The translations under genes were made by a program, and so were the position numbers. DNA of 52,599 bases from a virus (taxonomy: Duplodnaviria; Caudoviricetes). The stretch's first letter is position 1; each line of letters begins with the position of its first letter. Of the stretch, positions 1-27,081 are shown one piece after another. The notes beneath the pieces were generated by a model, which saw only the letters and a list, made by a program, of their open reading frames with translations, was not told the DNA's origin and did no database searches. Where the stretch lies: the IMG/VR virus record IMGVR_UViG_3300046791_000268, positions 1-52,599 of that record; one strand, written 5' to 3'.

Positions 1-366
1 CCCAGCCATACGGGCCCCCAAACCAGTCACTGCTATGTACGGTGACCACATCCGCTAGGATGGCCGTACACAAGATCGCACTCCGCGGCCACGTAGGCGG
101 TGGCTCGGCGCCCGCTAGCTGACACATCTCCGCACAGTCGGCCTGGCCCTCGTGGTCGCCAGGTTTCGCGCCTGCGTGAATGGCGATCCGCTGGCCTATC
201 ATGGCTTTCGGCGGGGACCAGACCCGGTTCTCTATGTCCTTGCCAGCGTGGGCGATGGCCCAGGCCCAGCAAGCGTGCAACGTCAGTGCCTTCATACGCT
301 ACAGCTTGACAGGTGCCGCCACGTCCGCAAGGCGAAAGTGCAACAAAGATTCAGCCGCGCCATGGT

Positions 367-404
367 CGATTTACTGTTGCACTATTTCAGAGACGCGCTA
401 CAGT
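367..404 (+). promoter_or_regulatory. Repeated promoter/operator element copy 1
   Basis: cgatttactg-TTG-cactatttca; -35 TTGCAC, 16 nt, -10 TACAGT, 6 nt, ATG 411. Confidence 0.85.
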
Positions 405-410
405 CTAGAT

Positions 411-758
411 ATGAACAACGCGACGCAAACAACCGAGACGCAGAACGCCACCTACACGCACGATGGCCGCATCGTTTACCCCGCGGGAACGGCCCTGCCA
501 GTCTGGGCGCATGGCTGGACACAGTGTAACAACCGTGGCGGCGCTTACTCTGTGTGGCTGGACGCGGCGGACATTGCCGCCAGCAAGGCGGACTATGCGG
601 CCATTGCCGCGGAAGCTGCAAAGCTCCGCACGCGAGTGGCTTGCGAGGCGGCATTGCGGGACCTGGGCGTTGAGCCATGCGGCACTTGCGCGATGATGCG
701 CATTGCGTACCAAAATACGAAATACGCGGATCTCTGGCCACTCCGCCAAGTCGGCTGA
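411..758 (+). CDS. Hypothetical array protein (115 aa, CxxC near C-terminus)
   Basis: In-frame ATG of ORF 180..758 directly after element; its TGA is the first 3 nt of the next element. Confidence 0.8.
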   Translation: MNNATQTTETQNATYTHDGRIVYPAGTALPVWAHGWTQCNNRGGAYSVWLDAADIAASKADYAAIAAEAAKLRTRVACEAALRDLGVEPCGTCAMMRIAYQNTKYADLWPLRQVG

Positions 759-793
759 TTTAGCGTTGCGCGGATTCAATCTAGTGCTAGATT
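756..793 (+). promoter_or_regulatory. Repeated element copy 2 (leadered, SD GGGAG)
   Basis: tgatttagcg-TTG-cgcggattca; TTGCGC-16-TAGATT; extra inverted repeat ttcaatctag-tg-ctagattgaa. Confidence 0.85.
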
Positions 794-827
794 GAAGTCG
801 TAGGCAGTCAGCAAGGGAGACACGAAA

Positions 828-1043
828 ATGAGCAACGGTATGACGGCGGCGGATGTGCAGGGTTTGGCGAACGGCATTGAGGCGCGTTTGATGGCGCACC
901 TGTCGGGCGCGCAGCCTGCGGACACACAGACACAGCGCGTGCTACTCGCGCAACTTTCGTGGTGCCAGGCGCGCCTGTGCGAGGCCCAGGCCGATCAAGA
1001 GCGATCGGACGAAATCTCCTACCTTTGTTGCGTGCATGGTTGA
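828..1043 (+). CDS. Hypothetical array protein (71 aa)
   Basis: SD aagggag upstream; stop embedded in next element. Confidence 0.75.
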   Translation: MSNGMTAADVQGLANGIEARLMAHLSGAQPADTQTQRVLLAQLSWCQARLCEAQADQERSDEISYLCCVHG

Positions 1044-1078
1044 TTTGCCGTTGCACTAAATCAGAACGGTGCTATTCT
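1041..1078 (+). promoter_or_regulatory. Repeated element copy 3
   Basis: tgatttgccg-TTG-cactaaatca; TTGCAC-16-TATTCT-6 nt-ATG 1085. Confidence 0.85.
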
Positions 1079-1084
1079 CTAGAT

Positions 1085-1267
1085 ATGAACACGACGCAAT
1101 CAATCGCCGCCTACGAAATCTGCACACGCACACGGAACGTCGCACAGGCGCGCAAGTTCCACGCACAGGGCATCTTGACCGCCGTCCAGGTAGCCGCGGT
1201 GGAACGCTTGGTAGCCCAAGAGAACGCGTGGAAGCCGCGCGATACGAATAAAAGCGGCATGCGCTGA
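1085..1267 (+). CDS. Hypothetical array protein (60 aa)
   Basis: In-frame ATG of ORF 959..1267 (MNTTQSIAAY...). Confidence 0.75.
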   Translation: MNTTQSIAAYEICTRTRNVAQARKFHAQGILTAVQVAAVERLVAQENAWKPRDTNKSGMR

Positions 1268-1302
1268 AATAACGTTGCACCGAATCAAAGTAGTGCTAGA
1301 TT
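1265..1302 (+). promoter_or_regulatory. Repeated element copy 4 (leadered)
   Basis: tgaaataacg-TTG-caccgaatca; TTGCAC-16-TAGATT; leader nearly identical to copy 2. Confidence 0.85.
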
Positions 1303-1336
1303 GAAGTTGTAGGCAGTTAGCAGGGAGTTGACACGG

Positions 1337-1858
1337 ATGACCACCACGATTCACCAGATTCTTTTCACGCGCAAACACAATGAAAACGCGACCACCGCTA
1401 TGGACGCGTACGCGCCATGGTCGGGTCAGGTAGACCTGAACGAAACCGGCACATTCTGCGCGTCGTTCGATTGGGACATGCTGGTCACGGCGAAACTGTA
1501 TGAGGTGCGTGACGTGGAATTGCCCTCGTGGCTCCCTGCGGCGGAGTGGTGCAACGCTACGATTGACTGGAAATACACTTGGGGTGCGGGCGTAGACCGG
1601 GCATGGTCGGAAGCCTGGCAACGCGGTCTGAAAAGCCTGTCATTCGCCGATCGCTACGCGGCATGCAAGTTGCTCAATACCAAGAAGTTCCGATCCGAGT
1701 TTCGCAAATCGCTCCGTGACCAGATTGTCGCCTGGCTTGAAACCCCCGCCGCTGACCGCCGCTACGGCAACCCCCTGAGCCCTCGCCAGTGGGCCGCCAT
1801 CTCGGGGCCCGCGTACGAAACCAAGCGCGCCCAGGAACAGATTTACCGCGATCGTTGA
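1337..1858 (+). CDS. Hypothetical array protein (173 aa, Trp-rich)
   Basis: SD GGGAG before ATG 1337; stop embedded in next element. Confidence 0.85.
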   Translation: MTTTIHQILFTRKHNENATTAMDAYAPWSGQVDLNETGTFCASFDWDMLVTAKLYEVRDVELPSWLPAAEWCNATIDWKYTWGAGVDRAWSEAWQRGLKSLSFADRYAACKLLNTKKFRSEFRKSLRDQIVAWLETPAADRRYGNPLSPRQWAAISGPAYETKRAQEQIYRDR

Positions 1859-1893
1859 TTTTCTGTTGCGCTAAATCAAGACACTGCTAGTAT
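1856..1893 (+). promoter_or_regulatory. Repeated element copy 5
   Basis: tgattttctg-TTG-cgctaaatca; TTGCGC-16-TAGTAT-6 nt-ATG 1900. Confidence 0.85.
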
Positions 1894-1899
1894 CTAGAC

Positions 1900-2487
1900 A
1901 TGGGCACGAATCAAGGAGTTGGAACGATGAATAGCGAAGCAGTGGCGACGGTTAGCAGCGTGCATGTGTTCGAGGCGGCAGGCTTGGGCAAGGCGCCGTT
2001 CAAGCTGGGCGCGATTGTCGACACAGCCGCTGGCAAAGACGCACAGGGCCTTGTGTTGGTGGGCTACACACCGGAAGGCTTTGCCATCCACACGACGCCA
2101 GGCGGCACGTGCGCCTACTGCGGCCATGCCATCATCGTCTTGTGCAAGATCGTCAGCGCCGATGGTCAGCGGTTCCACGTGGGCACCGATTGTGTGAACA
2201 AAACTGGCGATGCTGGCATGGAAAAGCGTGTGGCGACTTTCGCCAGTGCGCGCGCATCAAAGCAACGCAAGGCGCTTGCGGCCGCAAAAAAAGCTGACCT
2301 GGCGACGCTGTTAGCCGACGAAACCGTGTGCGCGACACTCGCCGCGATGCCCCATCCGCTCGCCTGGCGCGCCGCACAAGGCGACACGCTGCTAGGCTGG
2401 GCTCAGTGGATGGCCGCCCATAGCGGCGCCGCTGGCAAGGCTAAGACGCTGAAAGCAGTCAAGGCTGCGCTGGCGGTGGCGCCATGA
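1900..2487 (+). CDS. Putative Zn-binding phage protein
   Basis: CAYC...HVGTDCV motif; alternative start 1927 with SD AAGGAG. Confidence 0.8.
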   Translation: MGTNQGVGTMNSEAVATVSSVHVFEAAGLGKAPFKLGAIVDTAAGKDAQGLVLVGYTPEGFAIHTTPGGTCAYCGHAIIVLCKIVSADGQRFHVGTDCVNKTGDAGMEKRVATFASARASKQRKALAAAKKADLATLLADETVCATLAAMPHPLAWRAAQGDTLLGWAQWMAAHSGAAGKAKTLKAVKAALAVAP

Positions 2488-2765
2488 AGTTCGAAGTTTC
2501 GCGCCGCCTCGATTCGCGCGGCTTCACACTGCGCACGCGCGTGCTGACTCTCGCCGCTCACTGGTGGCCGCGCTGGCGGCGCTTCCCCGGCGCATGCGTG
2601 ACGCTGAACTTTGGGCAAGGCGCGGGCTACATCGGGGGCGCTACAGCGTTTCTTGCGGTCAACGCCAAAGGCGGGGGCCTGCGCTGGCTGCACACACCCG
2701 CGCCGTTCCGGGCCGGTCTCACGCGCAACGGCAACGGCGTTCCCTACCATTTTCGCGGGGGCTGA
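2484..2765 (+). CDS. Hypothetical protein (93 aa)
   Basis: ATGA overlap with the previous gene; the only array gene without its own element. Confidence 0.65.
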   Translation: MKFEVSRRLDSRGFTLRTRVLTLAAHWWPRWRRFPGACVTLNFGQGAGYIGGATAFLAVNAKGGGLRWLHTPAPFRAGLTRNGNGVPYHFRGG

Positions 2766-2783
2766 AAATCGACGCGCGCCGAT

Positions 2784-2821
2784 TGAAAAGACGTTGCACG
2801 AAATCAAAAGGCTGTTAGAGT
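2784..2821 (+). promoter_or_regulatory. Repeated element copy 6
   Basis: tgaaaagacg-TTG-cacgaaatca; TTGCAC-16-TAGAGT-6 nt-ATG 2828. Confidence 0.85.
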
Positions 2822-2827
2822 AAAGAC

Positions 2828-3025
2828 ATGGACGAAACACAAACCAAGCCCTCCGCTGTAACAACCCTCGCCGCCGTCAAGGCGTTGCGCGCAACCAAGC
2901 CCAGCAGTGGCTTCGCCTGCATGGAATGCGGCCACAAGTTCCGCACCATCGCGGCCGCCCAAAAAGCGGCGTTTGGTGACAACGGGTGCCCCAAGTGTGG
3001 CGGCGCTGACATTGACCTGGGTTGA
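2828..3025 (+). CDS. Zinc-ribbon protein (65 aa)
   Basis: CMECGHKF...CPKCGG. Confidence 0.8.
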   Translation: MDETQTKPSAVTTLAAVKALRATKPSSGFACMECGHKFRTIAAAQKAAFGDNGCPKCGGADIDLG

Positions 3026-3042
3026 AAGATCGGGGCAACGTC

Positions 3043-3080
3043 TGAAAAGGCGTTGCACTAAATCAAGGGCCTGCTAGTCT
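3043..3080 (+). promoter_or_regulatory. Repeated element copy 7 (leadered)
   Basis: tgaaaaggcg-TTG-cactaaatca; TTGCAC-16-TAGTCT. Confidence 0.85.
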
Positions 3081-3132
3081 GATGAGTGTGGATACGGTAA
3101 CGAAACGCAACGCGAGCCAGGGAGTTGACACG

Positions 3133-3450
3133 ATGATTACGACGCAAACCAACAACGGCACCACGGTCACCATGTTCGCCTGTACGGCGGAACAAGAGGC
3201 CTTTGCCGCCTCTCTGAGCTACTGGACGGTCCTTATCCCTTGGTCGGATCAGCCGACCAAGTGGCACCCCACAGACCGCAAGGGCCCCTTCGCGGTGCTG
3301 ACCAGCGGCTGTTACAAGACGCTCGCACAGGCGCAAGCCTGGGCTGACGCCAACCTAAAGGGCCAGCCCTGCACGTTCCGCTGGTACGCGTTCGAAATGC
3401 CCCCAGAGGCGATCGGCCCCGATGGCGCGTGCCTGCCGCCTGCGGTGTGA
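3133..3450 (+). CDS. Hypothetical array protein
   Basis: cagggagttgacacgATG, the same RBS as the gene at 1337; alternative starts 3082/3088. Confidence 0.75.
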   Translation: MITTQTNNGTTVTMFACTAEQEAFAASLSYWTVLIPWSDQPTKWHPTDRKGPFAVLTSGCYKTLAQAQAWADANLKGQPCTFRWYAFEMPPEAIGPDGACLPPAV

Positions 3451-3481
3451 GCTGCCGCCAAACAATCTTCAGTGCAACGCA

Positions 3482-3520
3482 TGAAAACGTGTTGCACTAA
3501 ATCAGAGACCACGCTAGAGT
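3482..3520 (+). promoter_or_regulatory. Repeated element copy 8
   Basis: tgaaaacgtg-TTG-cactaaatca; TTGCAC-17-TAGAGT-6 nt-ATG 3527. Confidence 0.85.
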
Positions 3521-3526
3521 AAAGAC

Positions 3527-3811
3527 ATGGACAACAGCAACTACACGATGCCAGACGCGAGCGAAGCCGTAACCGTCAAGATCGCGGATTTCCGCCGCGC
3601 CATAGAGCACCTAGAGCGCAAGTTGCACGTGGACTACCACGCGTGTGTGGGCGCCGCGGAACGCGCCGCCTGGGCGGCACAGGCGCGCCGTGTAGGCTCT
3701 GAGCTGATCCGCCTAGTGTGCAAGCGCGCCACGGCTGACGATATGGATCGGCGCGAACGCGCTCTGGACCGTTCTACCGCTCTGATCGCGAAAGTTTTGC
3801 AAGCCGGTTGA
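3527..3811 (+). CDS. Hypothetical helical array protein (94 aa)
   Basis: ORF fills the interval between two elements. Confidence 0.8.
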   Translation: MDNSNYTMPDASEAVTVKIADFRRAIEHLERKLHVDYHACVGAAERAAWAAQARRVGSELIRLVCKRATADDMDRRERALDRSTALIAKVLQAG

Positions 3812-3847
3812 TTTAGGGTTGCACTCAATCAAGAGCCTTGCTAGAGT
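3809..3847 (+). promoter_or_regulatory. Repeated element copy 9
   Basis: tgatttaggg-TTG-cactcaatca; TTGCAC-17-TAGAGT-6 nt-ATG 3854. Confidence 0.85.
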
Positions 3848-3853
3848 CTACTC

Positions 3854-4678
3854 ATGGACAGCAGTCAAACGGTTACCCGGTTCGTGGGCATCTGCCAAAT
3901 CTGCGAAGGCCAGTTCAAGCTGGACGCGCAGGCCCTGATGGTGCACCACGGCTACAAGCGCCCAGGCGGCGGCTACATCGTGGGCGATTGCGCCGCGGTA
4001 GGTCACCCAGCCTACGAACAGAGCTGTGAGCGCCTGAAGTTGTACATCGTGGGCATGCGCGCGGCGCTGGCGACCGCCCAGGCGCGGAAGTGTGCGCTTG
4101 AAAGCGGCGAAGTGTCGGAACTGACTGTTGAGAGCCGCTACCGTCGCGGTTATGCGGCAGAGACCCGCACCCACAAAGTGGGCGATGTGGAATGGCTGCG
4201 CGTCCTAGAGTCAGCGATCGGCAAACAGACTCAGCTGGTCCGCTGGCTGACCGACGATATCAAGCGTTGCGAGGCCCGCGTAGCCGCCTGGAAAGCCCAG
4301 CCGCTGCGCACGGTGGAGGAACTACGGGCCACGGAACGTGCGAGCGCTCAGGAGGCGCAGGCGGCCAAACTTGCCAAGCGCCAGGCAAAGCTAGACGCCA
4401 AAATCAAGGGCTACCAGACGCGGATCGATGCGGCGTGCCGCCGAAAAACAACCAGCACGCTAGCCGACATTTTCGAGTCAGCGCCTGCCAAGCTCCGCGA
4501 AATCGTGGGCTGGAATGAGCTGACCGCCGCCCAGGCGCTTGCGCTCTTGGAACGTGACCACGTGTGGCGCGCGTTCGAGTTAGAGCCAGGCGCGCCCTCG
4601 AATCAGGTCACTCTGTCAAAGATGAGTTGGCCCGCGCTGCACGGCCTGCCGCGTTTTCCCTGGCCCGCGGGCCTGTGA
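3854..4678 (+). CDS. Zn-finger plus coiled-coil phage protein (274 aa)
   Basis: CQIC...HHGY...C N-terminus followed by long helical region. Confidence 0.85.
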   Translation: MDSSQTVTRFVGICQICEGQFKLDAQALMVHHGYKRPGGGYIVGDCAAVGHPAYEQSCERLKLYIVGMRAALATAQARKCALESGEVSELTVESRYRRGYAAETRTHKVGDVEWLRVLESAIGKQTQLVRWLTDDIKRCEARVAAWKAQPLRTVEELRATERASAQEAQAAKLAKRQAKLDAKIKGYQTRIDAACRRKTTSTLADIFESAPAKLREIVGWNELTAAQALALLERDHVWRAFELEPGAPSNQVTLSKMSWPALHGLPRFPWPAGL

Positions 4679-4698
4679 CGATTGTTGGGGTGCAACGC

Positions 4699-4736
4699 TG
4701 ATTTAGTGTTGCACTCATTCAGGCACCTGCTAGAGT
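4699..4736 (+). promoter_or_regulatory. Repeated element copy 10
   Basis: tgatttagtg-TTG-cactcattca; TTGCAC-16-TAGAGT-6 nt-ATG 4743. Confidence 0.85.
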
Positions 4737-4742
4737 CTAGAC

Positions 4743-4964
4743 ATGGAAACAAAGCAAATCATCGTGTCTAGCCGCCTGACCCTGGACGGCGTTCGCGTGT
4801 TCATCCACTCGGATGGTGCGATCGCCGATCGCTGTAACTTCCTTCGCAATCGCGTCAAGCGTGATCTGTGGCGCTTTGTGGGCGAAATCTGCACTCTGAA
4901 CTATTCGGAGTTAGAGACCGCGATCAAGGCCTGGAACCGTCCAGCGAAGGCCGGTGTGCGCTGA
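4743..4964 (+). CDS. Hypothetical array protein (73 aa)
   Basis: Bounded by two elements; stop embedded in the next. Confidence 0.8.
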   Translation: METKQIIVSSRLTLDGVRVFIHSDGAIADRCNFLRNRVKRDLWRFVGEICTLNYSELETAIKAWNRPAKAGVR

Positions 4965-4999
4965 TTTAGTGTTGCGCTATTTCAGAGGCCTGCTAGAGT
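4962..4999 (+). promoter_or_regulatory. Repeated element copy 11
   Basis: tgatttagtg-TTG-cgctatttca; TTGCGC-16-TAGAGT-6 nt-ATG 5006. Confidence 0.85.
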
Positions 5000-5005
5000 C
5001 TAGAC

Positions 5006-5185
5006 ATGGAACCGACGTACACAAAAAGCAACGCGGAAACGGGTGTAGAGGCGCGCGTGTTTGCCTACGGCGAACGCTACACGGTGACCCTGTGCGATCT
5101 TGACTCTGGCCAGACGTTGCCCCACATGCGGCGCGTGGCCACGCTGGCGGAAGCCGTGGCGCTTGCGGACAAGTGGGCCGCCTGA
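5006..5185 (+). CDS. Hypothetical array protein (59 aa, not in ORF track)
   Basis: Hand translation MEPTYTKSNAETGVEARVFAYGERYTVTLCDLDSGQTLPHMRRVATLAEAVALADKWAA*. Confidence 0.8.
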   Translation: MEPTYTKSNAETGVEARVFAYGERYTVTLCDLDSGQTLPHMRRVATLAEAVALADKWAA

Positions 5186-5197
5186 ACCGCGCCAGGG

Positions 5198-5236
5198 CGC
5201 GTGAGTGTTGCGAACAATCAAGAGAGTGGTTAGTGT
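5198..5236 (+). promoter_or_regulatory. Degenerate element copy 12 (left arm lost)
   Basis: gtg-TTG-cgaacaatca; TTGCGA-17-TAGTGT-6 nt-ATG 5243. Confidence 0.6.
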
Positions 5237-5242
5237 GTGGCG

Positions 5243-5455
5243 ATGAAGAAAAAGAAGAAAGTGGCGACACGGGGCGGGGCTCGCGAGGGCGCTGGACGGC
5301 CCGCGGTGGCCGATGAACTCAGGCGCGGTCATCGCATCATGCTGAATCTGCGAGACGAGCAACACGCGGAGCTAGTAGGCCTGGCCCAGCGTGCGAAGGT
5401 AAGTCTAAGTCGGTTCATCGTGCGTAAGCTGTTTCCGCTGGCTGCCGACGATTGA
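5243..5455 (+). CDS. Ribbon-helix-helix DNA-binding protein with basic RGGAREGAGRP arm
   Basis: HRIMLNL strand, then helices EQHAELVGLAQR and SLSRFIVRK. Confidence 0.75.
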   Translation: MKKKKKVATRGGAREGAGRPAVADELRRGHRIMLNLRDEQHAELVGLAQRAKVSLSRFIVRKLFPLAADD

Positions 5456-5476
5456 GCGGCTGGCAAGGGGGCACGC

Positions 5477-5896
5477 ATGGGTGAGCTGGATGACGGGATT
5501 GCGGAGCGCGTAGAGCTGTTTGAGCGGCTCAAGATGGCCTATTTGGAGTATCGGGCGGAGTGTTCGCTAGCCTGGAATCGTCACAGCACGTTCATGATTC
5601 TTGTGATCGTGCCTACAGCGCTGGGGTGCGTGCTGGGCATGGGATCGGCTGGGGTGCGTGCGTTGTTGCTTCAAAGCGCGCTGACGGCGCTAGCAGGCGC
5701 GTTCATCACGGCCCGCTCGCATGGCAGGGTAGCCGCGGCCCGGTACGTCCTAGAGGCGCTTGAGGGCAAGCTAGGGCTGGTCGCGATGCATGCCGCAGAC
5801 GGCGCGCGCGAACCGTTCCCCGGCATGCGGGTCACGGTCGCGCTGTTTGCGCTTCTGGCCGTGCTGGACGTCGGGCTAGCGGTGTGTGGGAGGTAG
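5477..5896 (+). CDS. Membrane protein (about 3 TM)
   Basis: Three hydrophobic stretches; SD-like aagggg upstream. Confidence 0.7.
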   Translation: MGELDDGIAERVELFERLKMAYLEYRAECSLAWNRHSTFMILVIVPTALGCVLGMGSAGVRALLLQSALTALAGAFITARSHGRVAAARYVLEALEGKLGLVAMHAADGAREPFPGMRVTVALFALLAVLDVGLAVCGR

Positions 5897-6337
5897 CGGT
5901 CTACGAAATCCCAGCTTGTGCGCGACCGCATCGGACATGCCTTGCAGGGCTTCGCGGTAGGGGTCGCAGACTTTGATGCTGGCCACGATCGCAGGCGCTG
6001 TGTAGGCGAGGGGCATGCGGGTGTGCGCGGCCAGGGCCTGACCGTTCATCGAATCGGCTGCGGCGCGTAGGCGCTTGGCGAGCTGGGATTCAAGGGCCAG
6101 CATCAGCGTGACGTGGTCGCAGGGCAGGGGAAAGTGTTGCTCGTGCAGTGGGTCAGCGCTTTCAAACAGGGCGGCGAATGTGATGGGATGGCCGCCCAAA
6201 TCGTACAGCCCGACGCGGCCGAAAGCGGGCCACACGGCCATAGTGTAGTGGCCTACCTGTGCGAGCCAGACGCGCCTACCATCGCAGTCTGTACGGCGTT
6301 GCCATTTCGCTTGCGGCTGTGTGGGCTGTGTGTGCAT
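5876..6337 (-). CDS. Hypothetical protein
   Basis: 153-aa ORF with SD-like GGGGG upstream. Confidence 0.65.
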   Translation of the reverse strand: MHTQPTQPQAKWQRRTDCDGRRVWLAQVGHYTMAVWPAFGRVGLYDLGGHPITFAALFESADPLHEQHFPLPCDHVTLMLALESQLAKRLRAAADSMNGQALAAHTRMPLAYTAPAIVASIKVCDPYREALQGMSDAVAHKLGFRRPLPPTHR

Positions 6338-6415
6338 GACGTGTCCCCCTGAGTGGTTAGAGCTAGCGCGACGATAGCGCGCTGGGTGCGTGCGTAAATG
6401 GCCGATCGGGGCCGT

Positions 6416-6643
6416 TCAGGGGTAGCCAGTGACCGTCAGTGCCTTGCGGACCCTGGGCGTAAGCGAGCGTAGCCAGAGCGCGACCGCCAGGCAGTCCACG
6501 TGTTCACAGGCGAACGCAAGGCTGACGCAGGCGTCAACGTCGCGATCGGCTACGTGGCCATTGTCGAGCACGTTGGCGACGCAACAGCCGGACGCGGCGC
6601 GCGCGTAAATGTTCGCGATGAGTGTGCTGGGCGCGTCCATCAC
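6416..6643 (-). CDS. Hypothetical Cys-rich protein
   Basis: 4-nt overlap with the upstream gene. Confidence 0.6.
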   Translation of the reverse strand: MMDAPSTLIANIYARAASGCCVANVLDNGHVADRDVDACVSLAFACEHVDCLAVALWLRSLTPRVRKALTVTGYP

Positions 6644-6894
6644 TTCCCCAGCCGTCCCTCTACGATGGTTTCCCAGCGCTCGTGTAGGCGGTCACGCCAG
6701 CCCCGGACGCGTCCAAGCAAACGGGACCAGCGGATGGTGCCGCGTTCGTGGTCGATGTCTAGGCGGTAGTCCCCTGCCGGCGTGTCACGAAACGTGATTG
6801 TGCATACCATGGCGCCCAGTTCCTGCATGTGGTCCAGGGTCGCTTTGAGTAGCTGTTCCCGCTGCGCATGGGTGAGTGGTAAATCGTCCATCAC
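6640..6894 (-). CDS. Hypothetical protein, paralog of 6891..7127
   Basis: Shared LPLTxxQxxQLL...TxTF...G...LxxD pattern. Confidence 0.7.
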   Translation of the reverse strand: MMDDLPLTHAQREQLLKATLDHMQELGAMVCTITFRDTPAGDYRLDIDHERGTIRWSRLLGRVRGWRDRLHERWETIVEGRLGK

Positions 6895-7127
6895 TTGACC
6901 AGGTGATTTTCTTCAAAGTTATCCCACCATAGGCGCAGACGCTCACCCCAGGTCAGGCGGCACAGGTGAGCGGTGCGGGTGTTCACATCTACGCGCAGGA
7001 TGACCGTGCCACAGCGGAGGCCTGAAAAGGTCATGGTGTGCACACCGCCTGTGTCAGGAGGCGTAGGTGTTTCAAAGATGCGTAGGAGCTGTTGCACCTG
7101 ATCGGGAGTGAGCGGCAGCTGTTGCAT
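6891..7127 (-). CDS. Hypothetical protein, paralog of 6640..6894
   Basis: Same shared pattern; overlapping stop/start. Confidence 0.7.
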   Translation of the reverse strand: MQQLPLTPDQVQQLLRIFETPTPPDTGGVHTMTFSGLRCGTVILRVDVNTRTAHLCRLTWGERLRLWWDNFEENHLVK

Positions 7128-7248
7128 ACGTGTAGGTCTTTCTGTGTGTTGCGCTAAGGTCCATTGACGGGCGCGCTAAGTTAGACATACATCAGCACAC
7201 CGAAGTGATGAACACGGAAAGACACGCAGACCCAATGAACGACAAGAG

Positions 7249-7503
7249 ATGCAGTCTCTGTTAAGAGGGGTAGACGTGAGAAAGCGTACAGCGACACCCG
7301 TAGAGGGTTTGAGTGGTGTGCAATACACACGCATCAGTGTGGAGCAGGCTGGGATGTTAGAACAGCTGCGGACGCTCAAGAGCGCCGAGAATCCAGGGAT
7401 GTGTATTTCGAGGGCTGATGTGGTCCGCGGGCTGATCGAGGATGCGGCGCGCAGGCTGCGCGGTGTGCCTTCGGCGCCGCCCCAGCGTGGCCGTGTAGGC
7501 TGA
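7249..7503 (+). CDS. Ribbon-helix-helix protein
   Basis: YTRIS strand, EQAGMLEQL helix, SRADVVRGLIEDA helix; start uncertain. Confidence 0.65.
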   Translation: MQSLLRGVDVRKRTATPVEGLSGVQYTRISVEQAGMLEQLRTLKSAENPGMCISRADVVRGLIEDAARRLRGVPSAPPQRGRVG

Positions 7504-7656
7504 GTGTACGTAGATTGTGGGCTGCGCTACTCGTGAGTGGGCCGCACAGGTCTAAATCTCGCACCCTAGACCAAGCCTGTGCGGTGGCGAGATAGCGCGG
7601 CCCAGAGTCTACGTGTGGTGATGTGCGCACGATTGCACGTGAAACGCGTGTGTAGG

Positions 7657-7911
7657 TCAGCTGCTAGCGGTGTTAGGGTCAGCGGCCAGGCTGAGCTTTT
7701 TGGCGTCAGCATCCATCTCGCCTGCAATGTGTCGAAGCACGGCGGCCGCCGTGGTGAGTAGCTCGGGGGCCTGTGACGGTAAGACCAGCCACTGCTGGCT
7801 ATACGCGTTACCGTGTTCGCCCTCAAAGACGATCAGCACGGTGCCCTTGGCATGTGTCTTCTCGCGGATGAAGGCGCATAGCTCGTCACACTCATCGGTA
7901 CCTTGGGTCAT
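7657..7911 (-). CDS. Hypothetical protein (84 aa)
   Basis: Protein-like 3' part of ORF 7657..8223 starting MTQGTDEC. Confidence 0.55.
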   Translation of the reverse strand: MTQGTDECDELCAFIREKTHAKGTVLIVFEGEHGNAYSQQWLVLPSQAPELLTTAAAVLRHIAGEMDADAKKLSLAADPNTASS

Positions 7912-8515: not shown

Positions 8516-8581
8516 ATTCTCCTGCGTTCCCCTCTGGTGGGCTGTGTGGGTTGGGCTGTGTGGGTTGGGCGCTGTGTGCGA

Positions 8582-8845
8582 TTACGCGAACACTCCGCAC
8601 TGGCTCGCGATCTTGCGCGCCTGCGCAAAGCATTCGTGGGCGCCCACGACGTTCTGTAGCTCCGCTTGTAGGTCACGGCAGGCGTTACCGATGCCTGCTA
8701 CGCCGCTGGCGTTCCACTCGCTCGCAAGCGCCTGGGCGAACCAGGCGCCGCTCTCATAGTGCAAGCACCACACACGGGCCCGCAGCTTGATCGCGCTGGC
8801 GATGATGGCGGCCTGTGACTCGGTTACGGCGTGCTTGCTGTTCAT
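8582..8845 (-). CDS. Hypothetical cassette protein
   Basis: ATG 6 nt after the -10 of element copy 13. Confidence 0.75.
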   Translation of the reverse strand: MNSKHAVTESQAAIIASAIKLRARVWCLHYESGAWFAQALASEWNASGVAGIGNACRDLQAELQNVVGAHECFAQARKIASQCGVFA

Positions 8846-8851
8846 ACTCAT

Positions 8852-8889
8852 ATCCTAGCACGTCACTGAATACGTGCAACAGCTTTTCA
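8852..8889 (-). promoter_or_regulatory. Repeated element copy 13
   Basis: tgaaaagctg-TTG-cacgtattca; TTGCAC-16-TAGGAT. Confidence 0.85.
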
Positions 8890-8909
8890 GCTGTGCCCCC
8901 GTATTCAGT

Positions 8910-9161
8910 TCAGCGGCTGGCGATCGTCCAGACGTAGTGACCAGCGCGGTTAGCGGCTTCCTGGCCCTTGACCAGCCGGCCCTGCATCGTCTGGCCCGTC
9001 AGGCGGCGCGATGCCAGGCGAGCGGCTGTCACCAGCTCCGCTTGACGGTCGGTCGCGCTGATGTCCATCGCCAGGGCGAACTTGCCGTTGACATACGCAT
9101 TGTAGAGCGAGCCCGTGACGGTGGGTGACTGGTAGCAGAGCGTGATTTGCTTTGTGTTCAT
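8910..9161 (-). CDS. Hypothetical cassette protein (83 aa)
   Basis: Leaderless ATG after copy 14. Confidence 0.8.
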   Translation of the reverse strand: MNTKQITLCYQSPTVTGSLYNAYVNGKFALAMDISATDRQAELVTAARLASRRLTGQTMQGRLVKGQEAANRAGHYVWTIASR

Positions 9162-9167
9162 ATCTAG

Positions 9168-9205
9168 AGATTAGCACGCGTATGATTACGCGCAACAGTA
9201 AATCA
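9168..9205 (-). promoter_or_regulatory. Repeated element copy 14
   Basis: tgatttactg-TTG-cgcgtaatca; TTGCGC-16-TAATCT-6 nt-ATG. Confidence 0.85.
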
Positions 9206-9220
9206 GCACTGTGCACAAAC

Positions 9221-9270: not shown

Positions 9271-9501
9271 TTAGAGGGCGCCCAAGGCGCGCAAGGTAAG
9301 ATTGCGCTCCTGCCATTTGTGGAGCATGCGATCGATTTCGCGCGCAGGCAGTGTGTGCGCATAGGCCTCGATTACAGCAAGGCTGGCCGCCTCGTATTCC
9401 TCGCGCATGGTGCGCTCTTGGGCTGTGCCGCAGGCTTGCGCCAAGCGGTCATGCGCGGTCACGAGGTTTTGGGTGGCGACTTTGATTTGCGTGCTGTCCA
9501 T
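9271..9501 (-). CDS. Hypothetical cassette protein (76 aa)
   Basis: Leaderless ATG after copy 15. Confidence 0.8.
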   Translation of the reverse strand: MDSTQIKVATQNLVTAHDRLAQACGTAQERTMREEYEAASLAVIEAYAHTLPAREIDRMLHKWQERNLTLRALGAL

Positions 9502-9507
9502 ATCTAG

Positions 9508-9545
9508 AGATTAGCATCACTCTGAATATGTGCAACACGAAATCA
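9508..9545 (-). promoter_or_regulatory. Repeated element copy 15
   Basis: tgatttcgtg-TTG-cacatattca; TTGCAC-16-TAATCT-6 nt-ATG. Confidence 0.85.
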
Positions 9546-9630
9546 GCATGGTAGGCGCGATCGGGGTGCGATTTACGGCGGCGCCTCAAGTCGGCTGAGT
9601 ACGTCTCGGCTGCGTTAGAGAGGTGAGAGC

Positions 9631-10384: not shown

Positions 10385-10393
10385 GGTACACCC

Positions 10394-11652: not shown

Positions 11653-12376
11653 GCGCGTACACCGTAGCCAGATTGCGCTTGCGGACTACAACCCGCGCAC
11701 CATGGACGATGAAGCCCGGGGCAAGCTACACGCGAACCTAAAGACGGTCGGGCTGGTCGCTGCGCTTACGTGGAATCGTCGCACAGGGAACCTTGTTGCA
11801 GGTCACCAGCGCATCGCAGAGCTGGACGCGCTCGAAGGTAGCCAGGACTACTACCTGGATCTCAATGTCGTAGACCTGGACGAAAAAACCGAACGCGAAC
11901 AAAATATATTTTTGAACAATCGCGCCGCCCAGGGCGATTACGACGTGCTCAAAGTCGCCGAACTTTTTTCTGACAAAGTGCTAGAGCTGAACCCCGCGGC
12001 CGCAGGCTTTGGCGCGCTGGACCTACAGCTGATGTTCGATGAAGCCGGGGTGGGCATGTTCAGCGATACGGAGGGCCTAGCCGCCATCGATGAACTCAAG
12101 GCCATGGGCGCCGAAAAGAGCACCAAGCGCCACGCGGATCGCGCACCGGGCGAAATGCCCAGCCGCGCAGTGGTAGGCGAGCTGGGCCTAGACGAGCGCG
12201 AAGCCACGGAAGAAACCGAGACGATGAGTGTTATCGTGTTTCTCAATCCCAGGGAACGCGCTGTGTTTCTCGCCGCCATGGGCTGCGATGAACATCAGCG
12301 CTATGTCGACGGGTCCGCGGTGTTTGCGAAGCTGGGCATTGACCCCTCGGAAGCCTGGGCCAGCGAGCTGGGCTAG
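11510..12376 (+). CDS. ParB/Srx-like protein
   Basis: ADYNPR...GLV...WNRRTGNLVAGHQR; start uncertain, overlaps the 3' tail of the previous ORF. Confidence 0.85.
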   Translation: MNSDKKAHATKIKALQDYVRESIPTQSPTQSTLPTANQVSKYQTFITERVHRSQIALADYNPRTMDDEARGKLHANLKTVGLVAALTWNRRTGNLVAGHQRIAELDALEGSQDYYLDLNVVDLDEKTEREQNIFLNNRAAQGDYDVLKVAELFSDKVLELNPAAAGFGALDLQLMFDEAGVGMFSDTEGLAAIDELKAMGAEKSTKRHADRAPGEMPSRAVVGELGLDEREATEETETMSVIVFLNPRERAVFLAAMGCDEHQRYVDGSAVFAKLGIDPSEAWASELG

Positions 12377-12750
12377 AACTGGACGCTTTGCAGGCGCACG
12401 CGGCGCTGAGCTTTGGAGCCGTTGCGGCGCGTGTATGCGATAAGCGCGCTGGTCGCGCACGCGCGGACCACACGCCCCGTCCACGATCCGAACATTCCGC
12501 GCTGGAATGTCACCAGCTGACCGATGGCCGGCTGCGATCGGCAGCCGTTGGCGACGCAGTAGCCATCCCAGTGCGCGAGCACGCGCGCCGCACTCGACAC
12601 GTCGAGCGCTATCGATGCCTCGCCCTGGCGGCCGCCGCTGAATACCACGTACCCCGCCTCAATCCGCGCGGATAGCCGCAGGCCGTTCTGTGCCAACTTC
12701 AGTTCAGTGACCAGTTTCGCAATCCGTGTCTCTGTGTTGTTTGCGTCCAT
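12373..12750 (-). CDS. Hypothetical cassette protein (SH3-like C-terminus)
   Basis: Leaderless ATG after copy 16; IGQLVTF...TGRVV pattern. Confidence 0.8.
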   Translation of the reverse strand: MDANNTETRIAKLVTELKLAQNGLRLSARIEAGYVVFSGGRQGEASIALDVSSAARVLAHWDGYCVANGCRSQPAIGQLVTFQRGMFGSWTGRVVRACATSALIAYTRRNGSKAQRRVRLQSVQF

Positions 12751-12756
12751 GTCTCT

Positions 12757-12794
12757 ATGCTAGCAGGCCTCTGAAAGAACGCAACACATAATCA
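12757..12794 (-). promoter_or_regulatory. Repeated element copy 16
   Basis: tgattatgtg-TTG-cgttctttca; TTGCGT-16-TAGCAT-6 nt-ATG. Confidence 0.85.
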
Positions 12795-12814
12795 ACGGTC
12801 TGGGCTGGCGGAGT

Positions 12815-24377: not shown

Positions 24378-24860
24378 TCACTCCGACAGGTCCAACAGGT
24401 GACGGCTGATGGTGTGGGCCAACTCGCGGATCTCAGCGTCAGCGCATTCCAAGGCCTGGCGCATGGCTGCCAAGTCTTTCGCGTCCATCGCCTCTCGGAT
24501 CGCGTCGGACAGGCGCTTGACGCGTGAGTCTTGCAGGTAGGCCATGTGCGAAACGCACTCCTTGAGGTGTGCGGCGTTCATCACTTCCGCGCATTGTTGG
24601 GCGATCTGTTCGTTCCACTGTTCGATCGCTTGCGCTTCTGACCGGCCCACACCGCTAGTCTGGGGTGTGCCATCTGCGCATTCCTCGCACGCGATGCTGT
24701 AAAAGCCAGCGGGCTGACTTTCGACAGTGGGTGTGGTGCCGCACGTACACGCCAGCGGCTCTGTGGGCGTGTGTTCGGAGTGAAAAGCCGCATACGCCTT
24801 GCGAAAGGCGTCACACTTTGAGCATTCGTTATTGGGGCACTGGCCGTTGCAGTTGTTCAT
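24378..24860 (-). CDS. Cassette protein with Lar-like zinc finger
   Basis: CTCGTTP...IACEEC...AIEQWN; ATG 7 nt after the -10 of copy 17. Confidence 0.75.
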   Translation of the reverse strand: MNNCNGQCPNNECSKCDAFRKAYAAFHSEHTPTEPLACTCGTTPTVESQPAGFYSIACEECADGTPQTSGVGRSEAQAIEQWNEQIAQQCAEVMNAAHLKECVSHMAYLQDSRVKRLSDAIREAMDAKDLAAMRQALECADAEIRELAHTISRHLLDLSE

Positions 24861-24867
24861 AAGCATC

Positions 24868-24905
24868 AATCTAGCAGGGATATGAAATCGCGCAACTAGA
24901 AATCA
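24868..24905 (-). promoter_or_regulatory. Repeated element copy 17
   Basis: tgatttctag-TTG-cgcgatttca; TTGCGC-16-TAGATT; its TGA is the stop of the upstream gene. Confidence 0.85.
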
Positions 24906-25106
24906 ATGTGACCAGGCTTCATTATCAAAGTGGTGCGCGCGCACGCCCACGGTAGCCGGTATTTCCCCTTGCCAGAGAAAAACGCGCTGTTGTTCGCGCG
25001 CCACGGCGTCGTAAGCATCCTCCTCCCGGGCATGCACAGAGACCACCGTGCAACGGTTAGGGGTAATGTCGCCAGCCACTACGTAAGTCGAGGGTTTTTT
25101 GTCCAT
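24903..25106 (-). CDS. Hypothetical cassette protein (67 aa)
   Basis: Between copies 18 and 17. Confidence 0.8.
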   Translation of the reverse strand: MDKKPSTYVVAGDITPNRCTVVSVHAREEDAYDAVAREQQRVFLWQGEIPATVGVRAHHFDNEAWSH

Positions 25107-25112
25107 TCCAAA

Positions 25113-25151
25113 AGCCTAGGGCATGCGCTGAAATAACGCAACGCTAAATCA
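25113..25151 (-). promoter_or_regulatory. Repeated element copy 18
   Basis: tgatttagcg-TTG-cgttatttca; TTGCGT-17-TAGGCT-6 nt-ATG. Confidence 0.85.
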
Positions 25152-25153
25152 GC

Positions 25154-27047: not shown

Positions 27048-27078
27048 GCAGTTCCATAAAAAACGCAACGCATAATCA
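27041..27078 (-). promoter_or_regulatory. Vestigial element copy 19 with no downstream gene
   Basis: tgattatgcg-TTG-cgttttttat; TTGCGT-16-TAGCAG. Confidence 0.5.
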
Positions 27079-27081
27079 ACC

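What the first reader, a model, noticed from the sequence alone, without database searches (positions are those of the whole stretch)
367..5455. Array of 'one element-one gene' cassettes sharing a 23-bp palindromic promoter/operator
Seen: 12 of 13 consecutive small genes are preceded by the same element, consensus TGATTTAGTG-TTG-CACTAAATCA (10-3-10 inverted repeat; the central GTTGC is invariant and the TGA...TCA ends nearly so). The centre doubles as a -35 box (TTGCAC/TTGCGC), followed 16-17 nt later by a mostly extended -10 box (TGcTAGAGT). There are 18 gene-linked copies in the window. The genes are mutually unrelated, none recognisable, several Zn-binding. Established: repeated early promoters mark host-takeover and anti-defence regions in some lytic phages. 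Inference: this is a modular, jointly regulated library of early host-interaction genes in a temperate phage, possibly an undescribed cassette system.
Basis: partly seen in the sequence, partly recalled or inferred. Interest (0 to 1): 0.9.

Follow-up and report, generated by a model that had tools for sequence, protein, structure and literature searches.

The report
Repeated promoter-operator cassettes in soil phage
A temperate soil phage places the same ~50-base promoter-plus-operator in front of 18 small unknown genes, mostly so that the message would begin exactly at the start codon; this looks like a variant of the mobile promoter cassettes known from T4-like phages, not a wholly new system.

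Summary
The window is a whole ~90%-complete temperate myovirus contig. It carries exactly 18 co-oriented copies of one element, 12 of them before 12 of 13 consecutive genes at 365-5455. The invariant letters are those of a sigma-70-type promoter: TTG at -35, a 16/17-nt spacer, TGn in 14 of 18, and T-A-N3-T at -10. The "10-3-10 palindrome" exists only in the consensus. Only TGA...TCA and the inner G...C are kept, there is no covariation, and hairpins are weak. So it reads as two half-sites around -35, an operator. New here: in 15 of 18 copies an ATG lies 6-7 nt after the -10, which predicts leaderless mRNAs. The same dyad occurs in two other distant temperate myoviruses. One has a 7-promoter array with unrelated genes. 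The other has two dyads beside a small gene whose homologue is also in the window. The best reading is a co-regulated array of promoter-operator cassettes like T4 PeSLs. Transcription starts, the regulator, the host and the gene functions are untested. I class it as a new variant of a known kind, of moderate interest.

The parts
365..758 (+). Cassette 1: element 365-412 (arm CGA instead of TGA; -10 TACAGT; ATG 6 nt after it) and gene 411-758 (115 aa, orphan).
   Evidence: R1 38.7 bits; geometry; no family
753..1043 (+). Cassette 2: element 753-799. The TGA of its left arm is the stop codon of gene 411-758. A 34-nt leader with GGGAG precedes gene 828-1043 (71 aa).
1039..1267 (+). Cassette 3: element 1039-1086 (arm TGA = stop of 828-1043) and leaderless-type gene 1085-1267 (60 aa).
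1263..1858 (+). Cassette 4: element 1263-1308 (arm TGA = stop of 1085-1267). Its leader resembles that of cassette 2. Gene 1337-1858 (173 aa; phrog_30881, unknown function).
1854..2487 (+). Cassette 5: element 1854-1901 (arm TGA = stop of 1337-1858). An ATG lies 6 nt after the -10 at 1900, and an in-frame ATG with a Shine-Dalgarno (SD) motif lies at 1927. Gene ends at 2487 (195 aa, one CxxC).
2484..2765 (+). The one gene of the run without its own element. It overlaps the previous stop (ATGA). 93 aa.
2783..3025 (+). Cassette 6: element 2783-2829 and leaderless-type gene 2828-3025 (65 aa, two CxxC; zinc ribbon below cut-off).
3042..3450 (+). Cassette 7: element 3042-3085, a leader of about 50 nt with CCAGGGAG, and gene 3133-3450 (105 aa).
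3482..3811 (+). Cassette 8: element 3482-3528 and leaderless-type gene 3527-3811 (94 aa).
3807..4678 (+). Cassette 9: element 3807-3854 (arm TGA = stop of 3527-3811) and leaderless-type gene 3854-4678 (274 aa). The N-terminal Cys/His domain is shared with jumbo-phage proteins of unknown function.
4697..4964 (+). Cassette 10: element 4697-4744 and leaderless-type gene 4743-4964 (73 aa).
4960..5185 (+). Cassette 11: element 4960-5007 (best match; arm TGA = stop of 4743-4964) and leaderless-type gene 5006-5185 (59 aa).
   Evidence: R1 48.3 bits
5199..5455 (+). Cassette 12: the weakest element, 5199-5244 (left arm lost, right arm AATCAA kept), and leaderless-type gene 5243-5455. This 70-aa ribbon-helix-helix (RHH) protein has a conserved N-terminal TRGGAREGAGRP arm. 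It is the only array gene shared with phage G002.
   Evidence: R1 22.3 bits
5477..5896 (+). Hydrophobic 139-aa protein 22 nt after the RHH gene, with no element of its own. G002 has a lipoprotein-like gene at the same place.
   Evidence: reading of the sequences
12373..12796 (-). Isolated cassette: element 12749-12796 and leaderless-type gene 12373-12750 (125 aa).
9271..9547 (-). Cassette: element 9500-9547 and leaderless-type gene 9271-9501 (76 aa). A terminator-like hairpin follows at 9248-9225.
8910..9207 (-). Cassette: element 9160-9207 and leaderless-type gene 8910-9161 (83 aa).
8582..8891 (-). Cassette: element 8847-8891 and gene 8582-8845 (second in-frame ATG, 6 nt after the -10).
24903..25153 (-). 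Cassette lying antisense inside the head/tail gene block: element 25106-25153 and leaderless-type gene 24903-25106 (67 aa).
24378..24906 (-). Second antisense cassette in the structural block: element 24863-24906 and gene 24378-24860 (ATG 7 nt after the -10). 160 aa, 11 Cys, sub-threshold Lar-like zinc ribbon.
27058..27080 (-). Half element (left arm + GTTGCGT) with no -10 and no gene, abutting the start of 27082-27561. It may be the scar of a lost cassette.
   Evidence: R1 12.1 bits
48177..49307 (+). Candidate regulator (inferred). The 376-aa protein has four tandem ~45-aa three-helix repeats and a C-terminal helical domain. It is homologous to the small proteins encoded beside the dyads in G002 (2111-2533) and G007 (8979-9305).

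Best explanation
Each element is a self-contained expression signal of about 50-65 bp for one small accessory gene.

(1) Promoter. It is a promoter for the host's primary sigma factor: -35 TTGCRC, a 16/17-nt spacer and an extended -10 TGnTAGAnT.

(2) Leaderless start. In 15 of 18 copies the -10 lies 6-7 nt before an ATG. Transcription would then begin at the A of the start codon, giving a leaderless mRNA. The other three copies carry a shared 34-50-nt leader with a Shine-Dalgarno (SD) sequence.

(3) Operator. Two inverted half-sites, TGAWWW and WWWTCA (TTGATT/AATCAA in relatives), lie about 20 bp apart and bracket the -35. A dimeric phage-encoded regulator binds them, most likely as a repressor that occludes RNA polymerase. 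All 18 genes would therefore switch together.

(4) Candidate regulator. The best candidate is the repeat-domain protein 48177-49307 (odds about 0.35). The RHH protein 5243-5455 at the end of the array is second (about 0.15).

(5) Spread. The units have spread within and between phages as promoter cassettes, as PeSLs have in T4-like phages. That is why the genes between them are unrelated orphans and why copies sit at four places, including antisense in the virion gene block.

Shown by sequence: the copy number, the promoter-type conservation, the ATG geometry, the lack of a hairpin, and the conservation of the dyad in two other phage lineages. Inferred: promoter activity, the transcription start, the binding protein, the direction of regulation and mobility.
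For: Promoter:
- The invariant columns are exactly the sigma-70 contact positions (TTG; T, A and the last T of the -10), with a fixed 16/17-nt spacer and TGn in 14 of 18.
- All 18 copies are co-oriented with, and directly before, an ORF with coding-type GC3 of 0.71-0.83.

Leaderless start:
- An ATG lies 6 nt (14 copies) or 7 nt (1 copy) after the -10 in 15 of 18.
- All 15 starts are ATG. This matches the finding that all 171 mapped leaderless starts in S. meliloti are AUG (PMC3616915, passages).
- In 12 of 15 the TAG of the -10 is an in-frame stop at -12, so no upstream start is possible.
- For 9 of the 14 whose coordinates were set correctly, no downstream in-frame SD-led start exists within 150 nt.

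Operator rather than hairpin:
- Only TGA/TCA and the inner G/C are kept.
- Pairing is 67% against 71.5% in shuffles, and the covariation score is below the shuffles.
- The MFE is 0 to -5.3 kcal/mol, with z near 0 in 7 of 8 folded copies.

Conservation elsewhere:
- G002 is a 46-kb phage with direct terminal repeats (DTR) whose structural proteins are about 25% identical to the window's. It has 7 promoters of the form TTG(A/T)TTT-N3-GTTGNN-N4-AATCAAG-GCTAnnnT in an array next to its integrase.
- G007, whose portal is 66% identical to G002's, has two near-perfect dyads TTGATT-N13-AATCAA 44 bp apart in a divergent intergenic region. One of them has no TTG at its centre.

Regulator candidate:
- The gene beside the dyads in G007 and beside the array in G002 is homologous to the C-terminal third of window 48177-49307.
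- Among 10 portal-related records, the profile A4 hits only G002 and G007. These are the only two with the element.
- The model has an N-terminal three-helix domain (pLDDT about 85).

Cassette behaviour:
- Only the RHH protein is shared between the two arrays.
- Copies lie at 4 loci, and there is a half element at 27058-27080.
- In G002, terminator+promoter+leader modules of 114-146 bp are about 90% identical between unrelated genes.
- In 6 of 12 array copies the left-arm TGA is the upstream gene's stop codon. The same is described for PeSLs.
Against: - There is no RNA evidence of any kind.
- The -35 TTGCRC matches the E. coli consensus in only 3 of 6 positions. A generic sigma-70 scan of 1-13000 called none of the elements.
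- The host is unknown, so its promoter rules and its capacity for leaderless translation are unknown.
- The W-tracts of the arms are A- or T-rich in either orientation, which would also fit a shape or UP-like role.
- In G002 the left arm coincides with the T-run of a terminator in 5 of 7 copies.
- The regulator link rests on two independent lineages (window; G002+G007). The two positive records were also used to build the profile.
- The repeat domain is widespread: 989 representative clusters.
- In the window no dyad lies next to gene 48177-49307.
- RHH relatives at about 42% identity occur in 12 other loci without the element, and G007 lacks the RHH.
- Mobility is inferred from distribution only. 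No close relative with a different cassette content was found.
Confidence: 0.6

Rival explanations
1. The promoters depend on an activator and are 'middle'-type. The dyad, or the GTTGC core, is bound by a phage activator that replaces or assists sigma region 4 at a weak -35. T4 MotA boxes and lambda CII sites that straddle the -35 work this way (both recalled, not tested). The array would then switch on after an early protein is made.
For: The -35 is only 3 of 6 to consensus, yet GTTGC is invariant in 18 of 18, including a G outside the usual hexamer. In the window the candidate regulator gene 48177-49307 sits in a rightward operon behind an HTH gene, not in a divergent autoregulated position.
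Against: TGn extended -10 boxes in 14 of 18 copies usually make a promoter independent of -35 help (established knowledge). In G007 the two dyads lie in a divergent region beside the regulator gene, the classic repressor-operator layout, and one has no promoter features. A dyad centred at about -33 covers both the -35 and the spacer.
Confidence: 0.15
2. The elements are plain duplicated strong promoters with no dedicated regulator. The arms would be AT-rich flanks (a UP-like tract, a terminator T-run, built-in stop codons) that travel with the promoter by descent. The genes would be constitutive 'morons'.
For: The W-tract orientation is free. In G002 the left arm is the terminator T-run in 5 of 7 copies. 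Stops occur in all three frames in 8 of 18 elements, against 2.6% of random 46-nt windows. The array lies next to the integrase, where accessory cargo is common.
Against: TCA is invariant in 18 of 18 and TGA is present in 16 of 18, at mirror positions in the spacer and upstream, where a promoter needs no specific letters. AATCAAG is kept at the same spacer position in a phage whose structural proteins are only about 25% identical. G007 keeps the dyad twice, once without a -35.
Confidence: 0.15
3. The palindrome acts as an RNA or DNA stem-loop that terminates or attenuates read-through from the upstream cassette, like the stem-loop part of a PeSL.
For: The consensus is a perfect 10-3-10 repeat. 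PeSL stem-loops can overlap the -35 (PMC2839356 section 13). G002 does have real GC-rich hairpins with T-runs before 5 of 7 promoters.
Against: Individual copies have 4-8 of 10 pairs and an MFE of 0 to -5.3 kcal/mol. z was about 0 in 7 of the 8 copies tested. There is no covariation, and pairing is below the shuffled controls. No T-run follows.
Confidence: 0.04
4. The elements are recombination sites of an integron-like or other site-specific gene-capture system.
For: The layout is one element per gene, all in one orientation, next to a tyrosine recombinase gene. The genes are unrelated.
Against: The elements lie 5' of the genes and contain the promoter. Integron cassettes are promoterless, with a 3' attC that folds as a hairpin (established knowledge); here folding is weak and does not covary. 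The recombinase matches only the generic phage integrase family. Copies also occur singly, far from the integrase.
Confidence: 0.03

Closest known systems
PeSLs (promoter-early stem-loops), the mobile regulatory cassettes of T4-like phages. Sources: Arbiol et al. 2010, PMC2839356 (abstract and section 13 read); Comeau et al. 2014, PMC4122927 (abstract read).
   Same: A repeated sigma-70-like promoter motif sits immediately before ORFans. There is an AT-rich part upstream of the -35 that contains the upstream gene's stop codon. Arrays lie in plastic regions, with a few copies inside virion modules next to unknown genes. The genes between conserved motifs are unrelated. G002's units are composite terminator+promoter, exactly as described for PeSLs.
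   Different: The phage is temperate and not T4-like. In the window there is no stable stem-loop. 15 of 18 units have no Shine-Dalgarno sequence and would be leaderless. The flanks form a conserved dyad that also occurs as a stand-alone operator-like pair in G007. Recombination at the elements was shown for PeSLs and is not shown here.
Dispersed repressor sites of temperate actinophages. These are the stoperators of cluster A mycobacteriophages (PMC9283540, only the start of the abstract seen in a search listing) and the conserved inverted repeats of phiC31 (recalled; my search of the library found no paper on them).
   Same: One phage regulator would control many sites spread over the genome, giving a single regulon of early or accessory genes in a temperate phage.
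   Different: Per that abstract, stoperators are asymmetric sites that also stop elongation. Here the site is a dyad centred on the -35 of each promoter. No repressor has been shown here.
Cluster O mycobacteriophages (PMC4351075, passages read).
   Same: Predicted SigA-like promoters have +1 at the first base of the start codon (leaderless), including one driving a leftward gene inside the structural operon. There is also a dyad-symmetric repeat in more than 30 copies, predicted to bind a dimer.
   Different: There the dyad repeats are mostly not at promoters. The promoters number 8-9 and are not one per gene. Those phages are not obviously temperate.
Morons of temperate phages and lambda PRM-cI (both recalled). 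'Accessory or moron loci' are mentioned in PMC7067206 (listing only).
   Same: A single accessory gene has its own promoter (and in G002 its own terminator) inserted between phage genes. A leaderless message starts at the A of AUG.
   Different: Here 18 units share one promoter-operator sequence and are stacked head to tail.

Membership tests
PeSL-type mobile regulatory cassette | Repeated sigma-70-like promoter motif located immediately upstream of ORFans | tested here: met
   18 copies, all before small genes without a known family
PeSL-type mobile regulatory cassette | [quoted passage not shown] | tested here: met
   Elements are 36-50% GC against 61% for the genome. The arm TGA is the upstream stop in 6 of 12 array copies.
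PeSL-type mobile regulatory cassette | Stable stem-loop that acts as terminator or attenuator | tested here: not met
   Window: MFE 0 to -5.3 kcal/mol and no covariation. G002: 5 of 7 units do have a GC hairpin plus T-run.
PeSL-type mobile regulatory cassette | Shine-Dalgarno sequence and start codon at the 3' end of the motif | tested here: not met
   Only 3 of 18 have a leader with SD; 15 of 18 have the ATG 6-7 nt after the -10.
PeSL-type mobile regulatory cassette | Recombination between elements causes indels or swaps between close relatives, or produces mini-circles | not testable with these tools
   No close relative with a different content was found.
Leaderless-mRNA promoter (lambda PRM-cI type) | The -10 hexamer ends 6-7 nt before an ATG, with no room for an SD | tested here: met
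   15 of 18 copies; all 15 starts are ATG.
Leaderless-mRNA promoter (lambda PRM-cI type) | The mapped 5' end coincides with the A of the AUG | not testable with these tools
   No RNA data were available to test this.
Repressor-operator regulon | Dyad-symmetric site overlapping core promoter elements, conserved independently of the promoter | tested here: met
   TGA/TCA are mirror invariants around the -35. One G007 dyad has no -35.
Repressor-operator regulon | A cognate DNA-binding protein binds the site | not testable with these tools
   Candidates only. The A4 family co-occurs with the dyad in 3 of 3 phages that have it and in 0 of 8 that lack it. The fold of its N-domain is inconclusive (Z up to 4.8 to small HTH domains).
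Integron gene cassettes | Promoterless cassettes with a 3' attC hairpin site and an IntI-type integrase with attI/Pc | tested here: not met
   The element is 5' of the gene, contains a promoter and folds weakly. The integrase matches only PF00589/phrog_1. An IntI-specific insert was not examined.
Ribbon-helix-helix (RHH) regulators (protein 5243-5455) | Beta-alpha-alpha fold of the CopG/Arc/MetJ type | tested here: met
   AF2 model with helices 38-50 and 55-68 at pLDDT 85-94. The top Foldseek rows are nearly all RHH proteins (KacA, AtaR, ParG, CopG, AmrZ), with rmsd 1.5 A over 42 residues and probability up to 0.98, but E is only 0.4. Pfam RHH_7/NikA-like/MobC_2 are below cut-off.

The most novel reading that the evidence does not exclude
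The element may be a complete 'plug-and-play' gene-capture and expression module. It would stop translation of whatever lies upstream, supply a promoter, an operator and a transcription start that is also the start codon. Any ORF joined at its ATG would then become an independently transcribed, Shine-Dalgarno-independent, co-regulated gene. Homologous recombination between copies would move such genes within and between phages, even into the virion operon. A dedicated regulator built from a so far unnamed, widespread ~45-aa tandem-repeat DNA-binding domain would hold the whole library silent or switch it on at once.
Probability: 0.2. Interest if true: 0.7.

Novelty: new variant of a known kind. 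Interest (0 to 1): 0.45.

Why it matters
If the predictions hold, this phage shows that the PeSL strategy of one portable promoter per orphan gene is not confined to lytic T4-like phages. It would also exist in temperate soil phages, combined with an operator and with leaderless translation. That gives a compact, well-defined regulon of 18 promoters and one site in which to study how phages acquire, insulate and co-regulate orphan genes. It also offers a short natural part (about 50 bp) that would drive SD-independent expression. Finally, it points to an unannotated repeat domain, found in about a thousand protein clusters, as a possible DNA-binding module.

Tried and rejected
**Searches for relatives by DNA**
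- The 14-nt pattern in viral contigs gave only single chance matches.
- A 34-nt IUPAC pattern that hits 9 of 18 window copies found G001/G002 in viral contigs. In genome contigs it gave one match and in metagenome contigs two. On inspection these were single copies in unrelated, lower-GC DNA, so I took them as chance.
- A second pattern gave 6 loci with no R1 match.

**Searches for relatives by protein**
- TerL found no close relative.
- The A4 family found only G001/G002.
- P0009, the closest relative of the candidate regulator, is not in IMG/VR.
- blastn and tblastn against cultured phages found no near relative and no host.
- The atlas gave only 'Viruses'. There are no tRNAs and no Rfam family.

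**RHH as the regulator**
- 20 loci encoding RHH relatives were scanned with R1. Only the two G001/G002 loci matched.
- Three of the loci showed no comparable repeat family.

**Sequencing runs**
- No RNA holder was listed.
- Contigs of four other soil or rhizosphere runs, laid on 1-13500, gave identical fragments. The only joints had 20-22-nt sides and were not at elements. No cassette variant was seen, and parts without cover say nothing.

**G001 versus G002**
- They are 100% identical over 11.5 kb, so they are uninformative.

**Fold of the candidate regulator**
- Foldseek found nothing at E<=0.001.
- VIA-align gave Z<=5.8 overall. The N-domain scored Z 4.1-4.8 to small HTH domains (small terminase, transposase, TrpR, StbA), which is inconclusive.

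**Homodimer prediction for P0004**
- No verdict.

**Three-frame stop idea**
- Only 8 of 18 elements have stops in all three frames, so I dropped it as a designed feature.

- The search of earlier findings was not open.

Full report
**What the window is.** The 52,599-bp window is one IMG/VR virus record, linear and about 90% complete, with 61% GC. PHROGs and Pfam scans of 90 and 60 candidate ORFs identify these genes:
- small and large terminase (13814-15734)
- portal, protease and major head protein (19702-23453)
- tail sheath and tube (28677-30608)
- baseplate and fibre genes
- a tyrosine integrase at 51104-52459 on the minus strand

It is therefore a temperate myovirus. No cultured phage is close: the best TerL identity is about 30%. 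The host could not be named. The same sequence occurs as identical contig fragments in four other soil and rhizosphere runs.

**The observation.**
- The consensus 23-mer with up to 3 mismatches occurs 5 times, against 0 in 100 shuffles.
- I aligned the 18 copies that a loose GTTGCR scan showed and built a sequence-only model from them.
- Run over the whole window without filters, the model returns exactly those 18 at 22-48 bits. The next match is 12 bits, a half element at 27058-27080. The 18 match by construction; the gap to everything else is the result.
- Twelve copies precede 12 of the 13 consecutive genes between 411 and 5455. The other six are on the minus strand at three places: 8582-9547 (three copies), 12373-12796 (one), and 24378-25153 (two, antisense inside the head/tail gene block).
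- Every copy is co-oriented with the ORF that follows it.
- The 19 proteins are unrelated to each other (no within-window BLASTP pair with E<0.01).
- They have no family above cut-off in Pfam, NCBIfam or PADLOC. PHROGs hits are to 'unknown function' families only, for 3 of 19.

**Anatomy.**
- Invariant columns are the G of TGA, GTTGC, TCA, and T, A and the final T of the -10 hexamer.
- The spacer between TTGCRC and the hexamer is 16 nt in 14 copies and 17 nt in 4. TGn precedes the hexamer in 14 of 18.
- This is the conservation pattern of a promoter for a primary sigma factor (established knowledge of -35, extended -10 and -10 contacts).
- However, TTGCRC matches TTGACA in only 3 of 6 positions, and a generic scan did not call these sites.

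The palindrome needs correcting:
- Single copies have 4-8 of 10 complementary pairs.
- Only the outer three pairs (TGA/TCA) and the innermost G-C are kept. Paired cells are 67% against 71.5% in shuffles, and the covariation score is below the shuffles.
- Predicted hairpins are 0 to -5.3 kcal/mol, with z near 0 in 7 of 8.
- The tracts next to TGA and TCA are A/T-rich in either orientation.

So this is not a stem-loop. It is two mirror half-sites about 20 bp apart that bracket the -35.

- In 14 copies an ATG lies exactly 6 nt after the -10 hexamer, and in one copy 7 nt after. A start 7 nt downstream of the hexamer is the usual distance, so the mRNA would begin at the A of the start codon.
- All 15 such starts are ATG.
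- In 12 of them the TAG inside the -10 is an in-frame stop at -12.
- Nine of them have no in-frame SD-led alternative within 150 nt.
- The codons after the ATG are also alike (ATG-RAC-A..-A.G-CAA).
- Three copies (755, 1264, 3042) instead have a 34-50-nt leader with GGGAG. Two of these leaders are near-identical.
- In 6 of the 12 array copies the TGA of the left arm is the stop codon of the previous gene. Stop-to-start distances are therefore little more than the element itself.

**Relatives.**
- A 34-nt pattern found one other phage, G002 (46,197 bp, DTR, 64% GC), and an identical fragment, G001.
- Its structural proteins are about 25% identical to the window's.
- Between a small minus-strand gene (2111-2533) and its integrase (7348-8718), G002 has seven promoters of the same build: TTG(A/T)TTT-N3-GTTGNN-N4-AATCAAG-N5-GCTAnnnT.
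- Five of the seven are preceded by a GC-rich hairpin plus T-run, one is leaderless-type, and the rest have SD leaders.
- The terminator+promoter+leader modules are 114-146 bp long and about 90% identical between unrelated genes.
- Only one array gene is shared with the window: the last one, an RHH protein (41% identity over 54 aa). In both phages it is followed by a membrane or lipoprotein-like gene.
The opposite is seen.

Ten records related by portal sequence (25-29% identity) were then scanned with R1. Only G007 matched. G007 is a relative of G002 (portal 66%, sheath 62%).
- It has no array.
- It has two near-perfect dyads, TTGATT-N13-AATCAA, 44 bp apart in the divergent region between a small gene (8979-9305, minus strand) and rightward genes that lead to the integrase.
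- The first dyad has no TTG at its centre.
- A dyad kept without a promoter, in a classic operator layout, is the strongest argument that the arms are a protein-binding site.

**Candidate regulators.**
- The G007 gene beside the dyads, the G002 gene beside the array, and the C-terminal third of window protein 48177-49307 are homologous. The C-terminal motif is 53% identical over 30 aa, and the whole-length alignments are 32-33% identical.
- A profile of the three hits only G002 and G007 among ten portal-related records. The eight records without the element have no hit. This is weak support, because the two positives were in the profile and are related to each other.
- The window protein carries four tandem copies of a ~45-aa unit (K..FV..LP....EV...A.AAGI..S...V...R). 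G002 and G007 have one copy each.
- An AF2 model of the G007 protein has a three-helix N-domain (pLDDT about 85) and a C-terminal helical hairpin. Fold searches are inconclusive.
- The repeat profile finds 989 representative clusters (221 at E<=1e-10), mostly with 2-5 repeats. None of 37 sampled proteins has a Pfam family on the repeat.
- The RHH protein does have an RHH fold. However, its relatives at about 42% identity occur in 12 other loci without the element, and G007 lacks it. It is the weaker candidate.

**Comparison with what is known.** The nearest described thing is the PeSL of T4-like phages. PeSLs share these features:
- repeated sigma-70-like promoters before ORFans in plastic regions
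- an AT-rich upstream part that holds the previous stop codon
- a few copies inside virion modules beside unknown genes
- a role in modular shuffling (PMC2839356 abstract and section 13; PMC4122927 abstract)

G002's units fit that description well. The window's units differ in four ways: they lack the stem-loop, they lack the Shine-Dalgarno in 15 of 18, they carry a conserved dyad, and they sit in a temperate, unrelated phage.

Other comparisons:
- Predicted leaderless phage promoters, including one inside a structural operon, and many-copy dyad repeats are described for cluster O mycobacteriophages (PMC4351075, passages).
- Many-site repressor regulons are known from cluster A mycobacteriophages (PMC9283540, listing only) and, from my recall, from phiC31. 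My search of the library found no paper on the latter.
- Two searches for the combination of a temperate phage with a per-gene leaderless promoter or regulatory cassette found nothing closer. The library lacks most subscription journals.

**Verdict.** The most likely reading (0.6) is a co-regulated array of promoter-operator cassettes, most of them giving leaderless mRNAs, that has spread in PeSL fashion.
- Promoter identity: I rate this at about 0.85.
- Leaderless start: about 0.65.
- Operator: about 0.6.
- Identity of the regulator: open.
- Early, anti-defence or host-takeover function of the genes: not supported by any result here. The only hint is one sub-threshold Lar-like zinc ribbon.

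It is a new variant of a known kind, and its interest is moderate.

Noticed in passing
window 27058-27080 (-): A half element (left arm plus GTTGCGT, 12 bits) with no -10 and no gene. It lies directly against the start of structural gene 27082-27561. It may be the scar of a lost cassette in the virion module.
   Followed up: partly
window 48177-49307 (+); proteins P0005-P0153: A ~45-aa tandem-repeat unit (4 copies here) defines a family of 989 representative clusters, usually with 2-5 repeats. None of 37 sampled proteins has a Pfam family on it. One member is fused to GerE-type HTH domains, and another carries an AT-hook-like GRPKG. It is probably an unnamed DNA-binding repeat.
   Followed up: partly
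L138 (G002) about 3845-3955 and 4500-4580: A second repeated intergenic element in G002 precedes the two array genes that lack a promoter element (3954-4157, 4581-4889).
   Followed up: no
window 800-828 and 1309-1337; L138 4236-4292 and 4969-5025; L193 about 9505-9520: The leadered cassettes share a 5'-UTR core GT(C/T)GT(A/C)GGCAG across the window and G002. G007 has GTTTGTCGGTGG after its second dyad. This could be a second conserved signal in the leader.
   Followed up: no
window 47595-47822: A divergent intergenic region holds overlapping GCTAGCGC palindromes (47699-47726). It lies between a Cys-rich 99-aa gene (minus strand) and an HTH-like 113-aa gene (plus strand). It is probably a separate genetic switch with its own operators.
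   Followed up: partly
window 15737-19664 (-): A block of about ten small minus-strand genes of unknown function lies between the large terminase and the portal genes. None of them has the element.
   Followed up: no
window 10738-12376 (+): A PAPS-reductase-domain ORF (10738-11652) and a ParB-like/phrog_9353 ORF (11465-12376) overlap by about 190 nt in my ORF calls. The start of the second, or a frameshift, needs checking.
   Followed up: no
window, 51 genes without the element: Only 22 of 51 have a Shine-Dalgarno-like motif before the start I chose. This suggests a host with weak SD use, or wrong starts on my part.
   Followed up: partly
window 24378-24860 (-): The 160-aa, 11-Cys cassette protein gives sub-threshold matches to Lar restriction-alleviation zinc ribbons (Pfam 22.9 vs 28.6 bits; TIGR03655 19.2 vs 39.6). 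This is the only functional hint among the 19 cassette genes.
   Followed up: partly
window 2-295 (-) and 52252-52599 (-): An ASCH-domain-like gene is cut by the left end of the contig, and another ORF is cut by the right end. They do not join in frame, so the record is not simply circularly closed.
   Followed up: no
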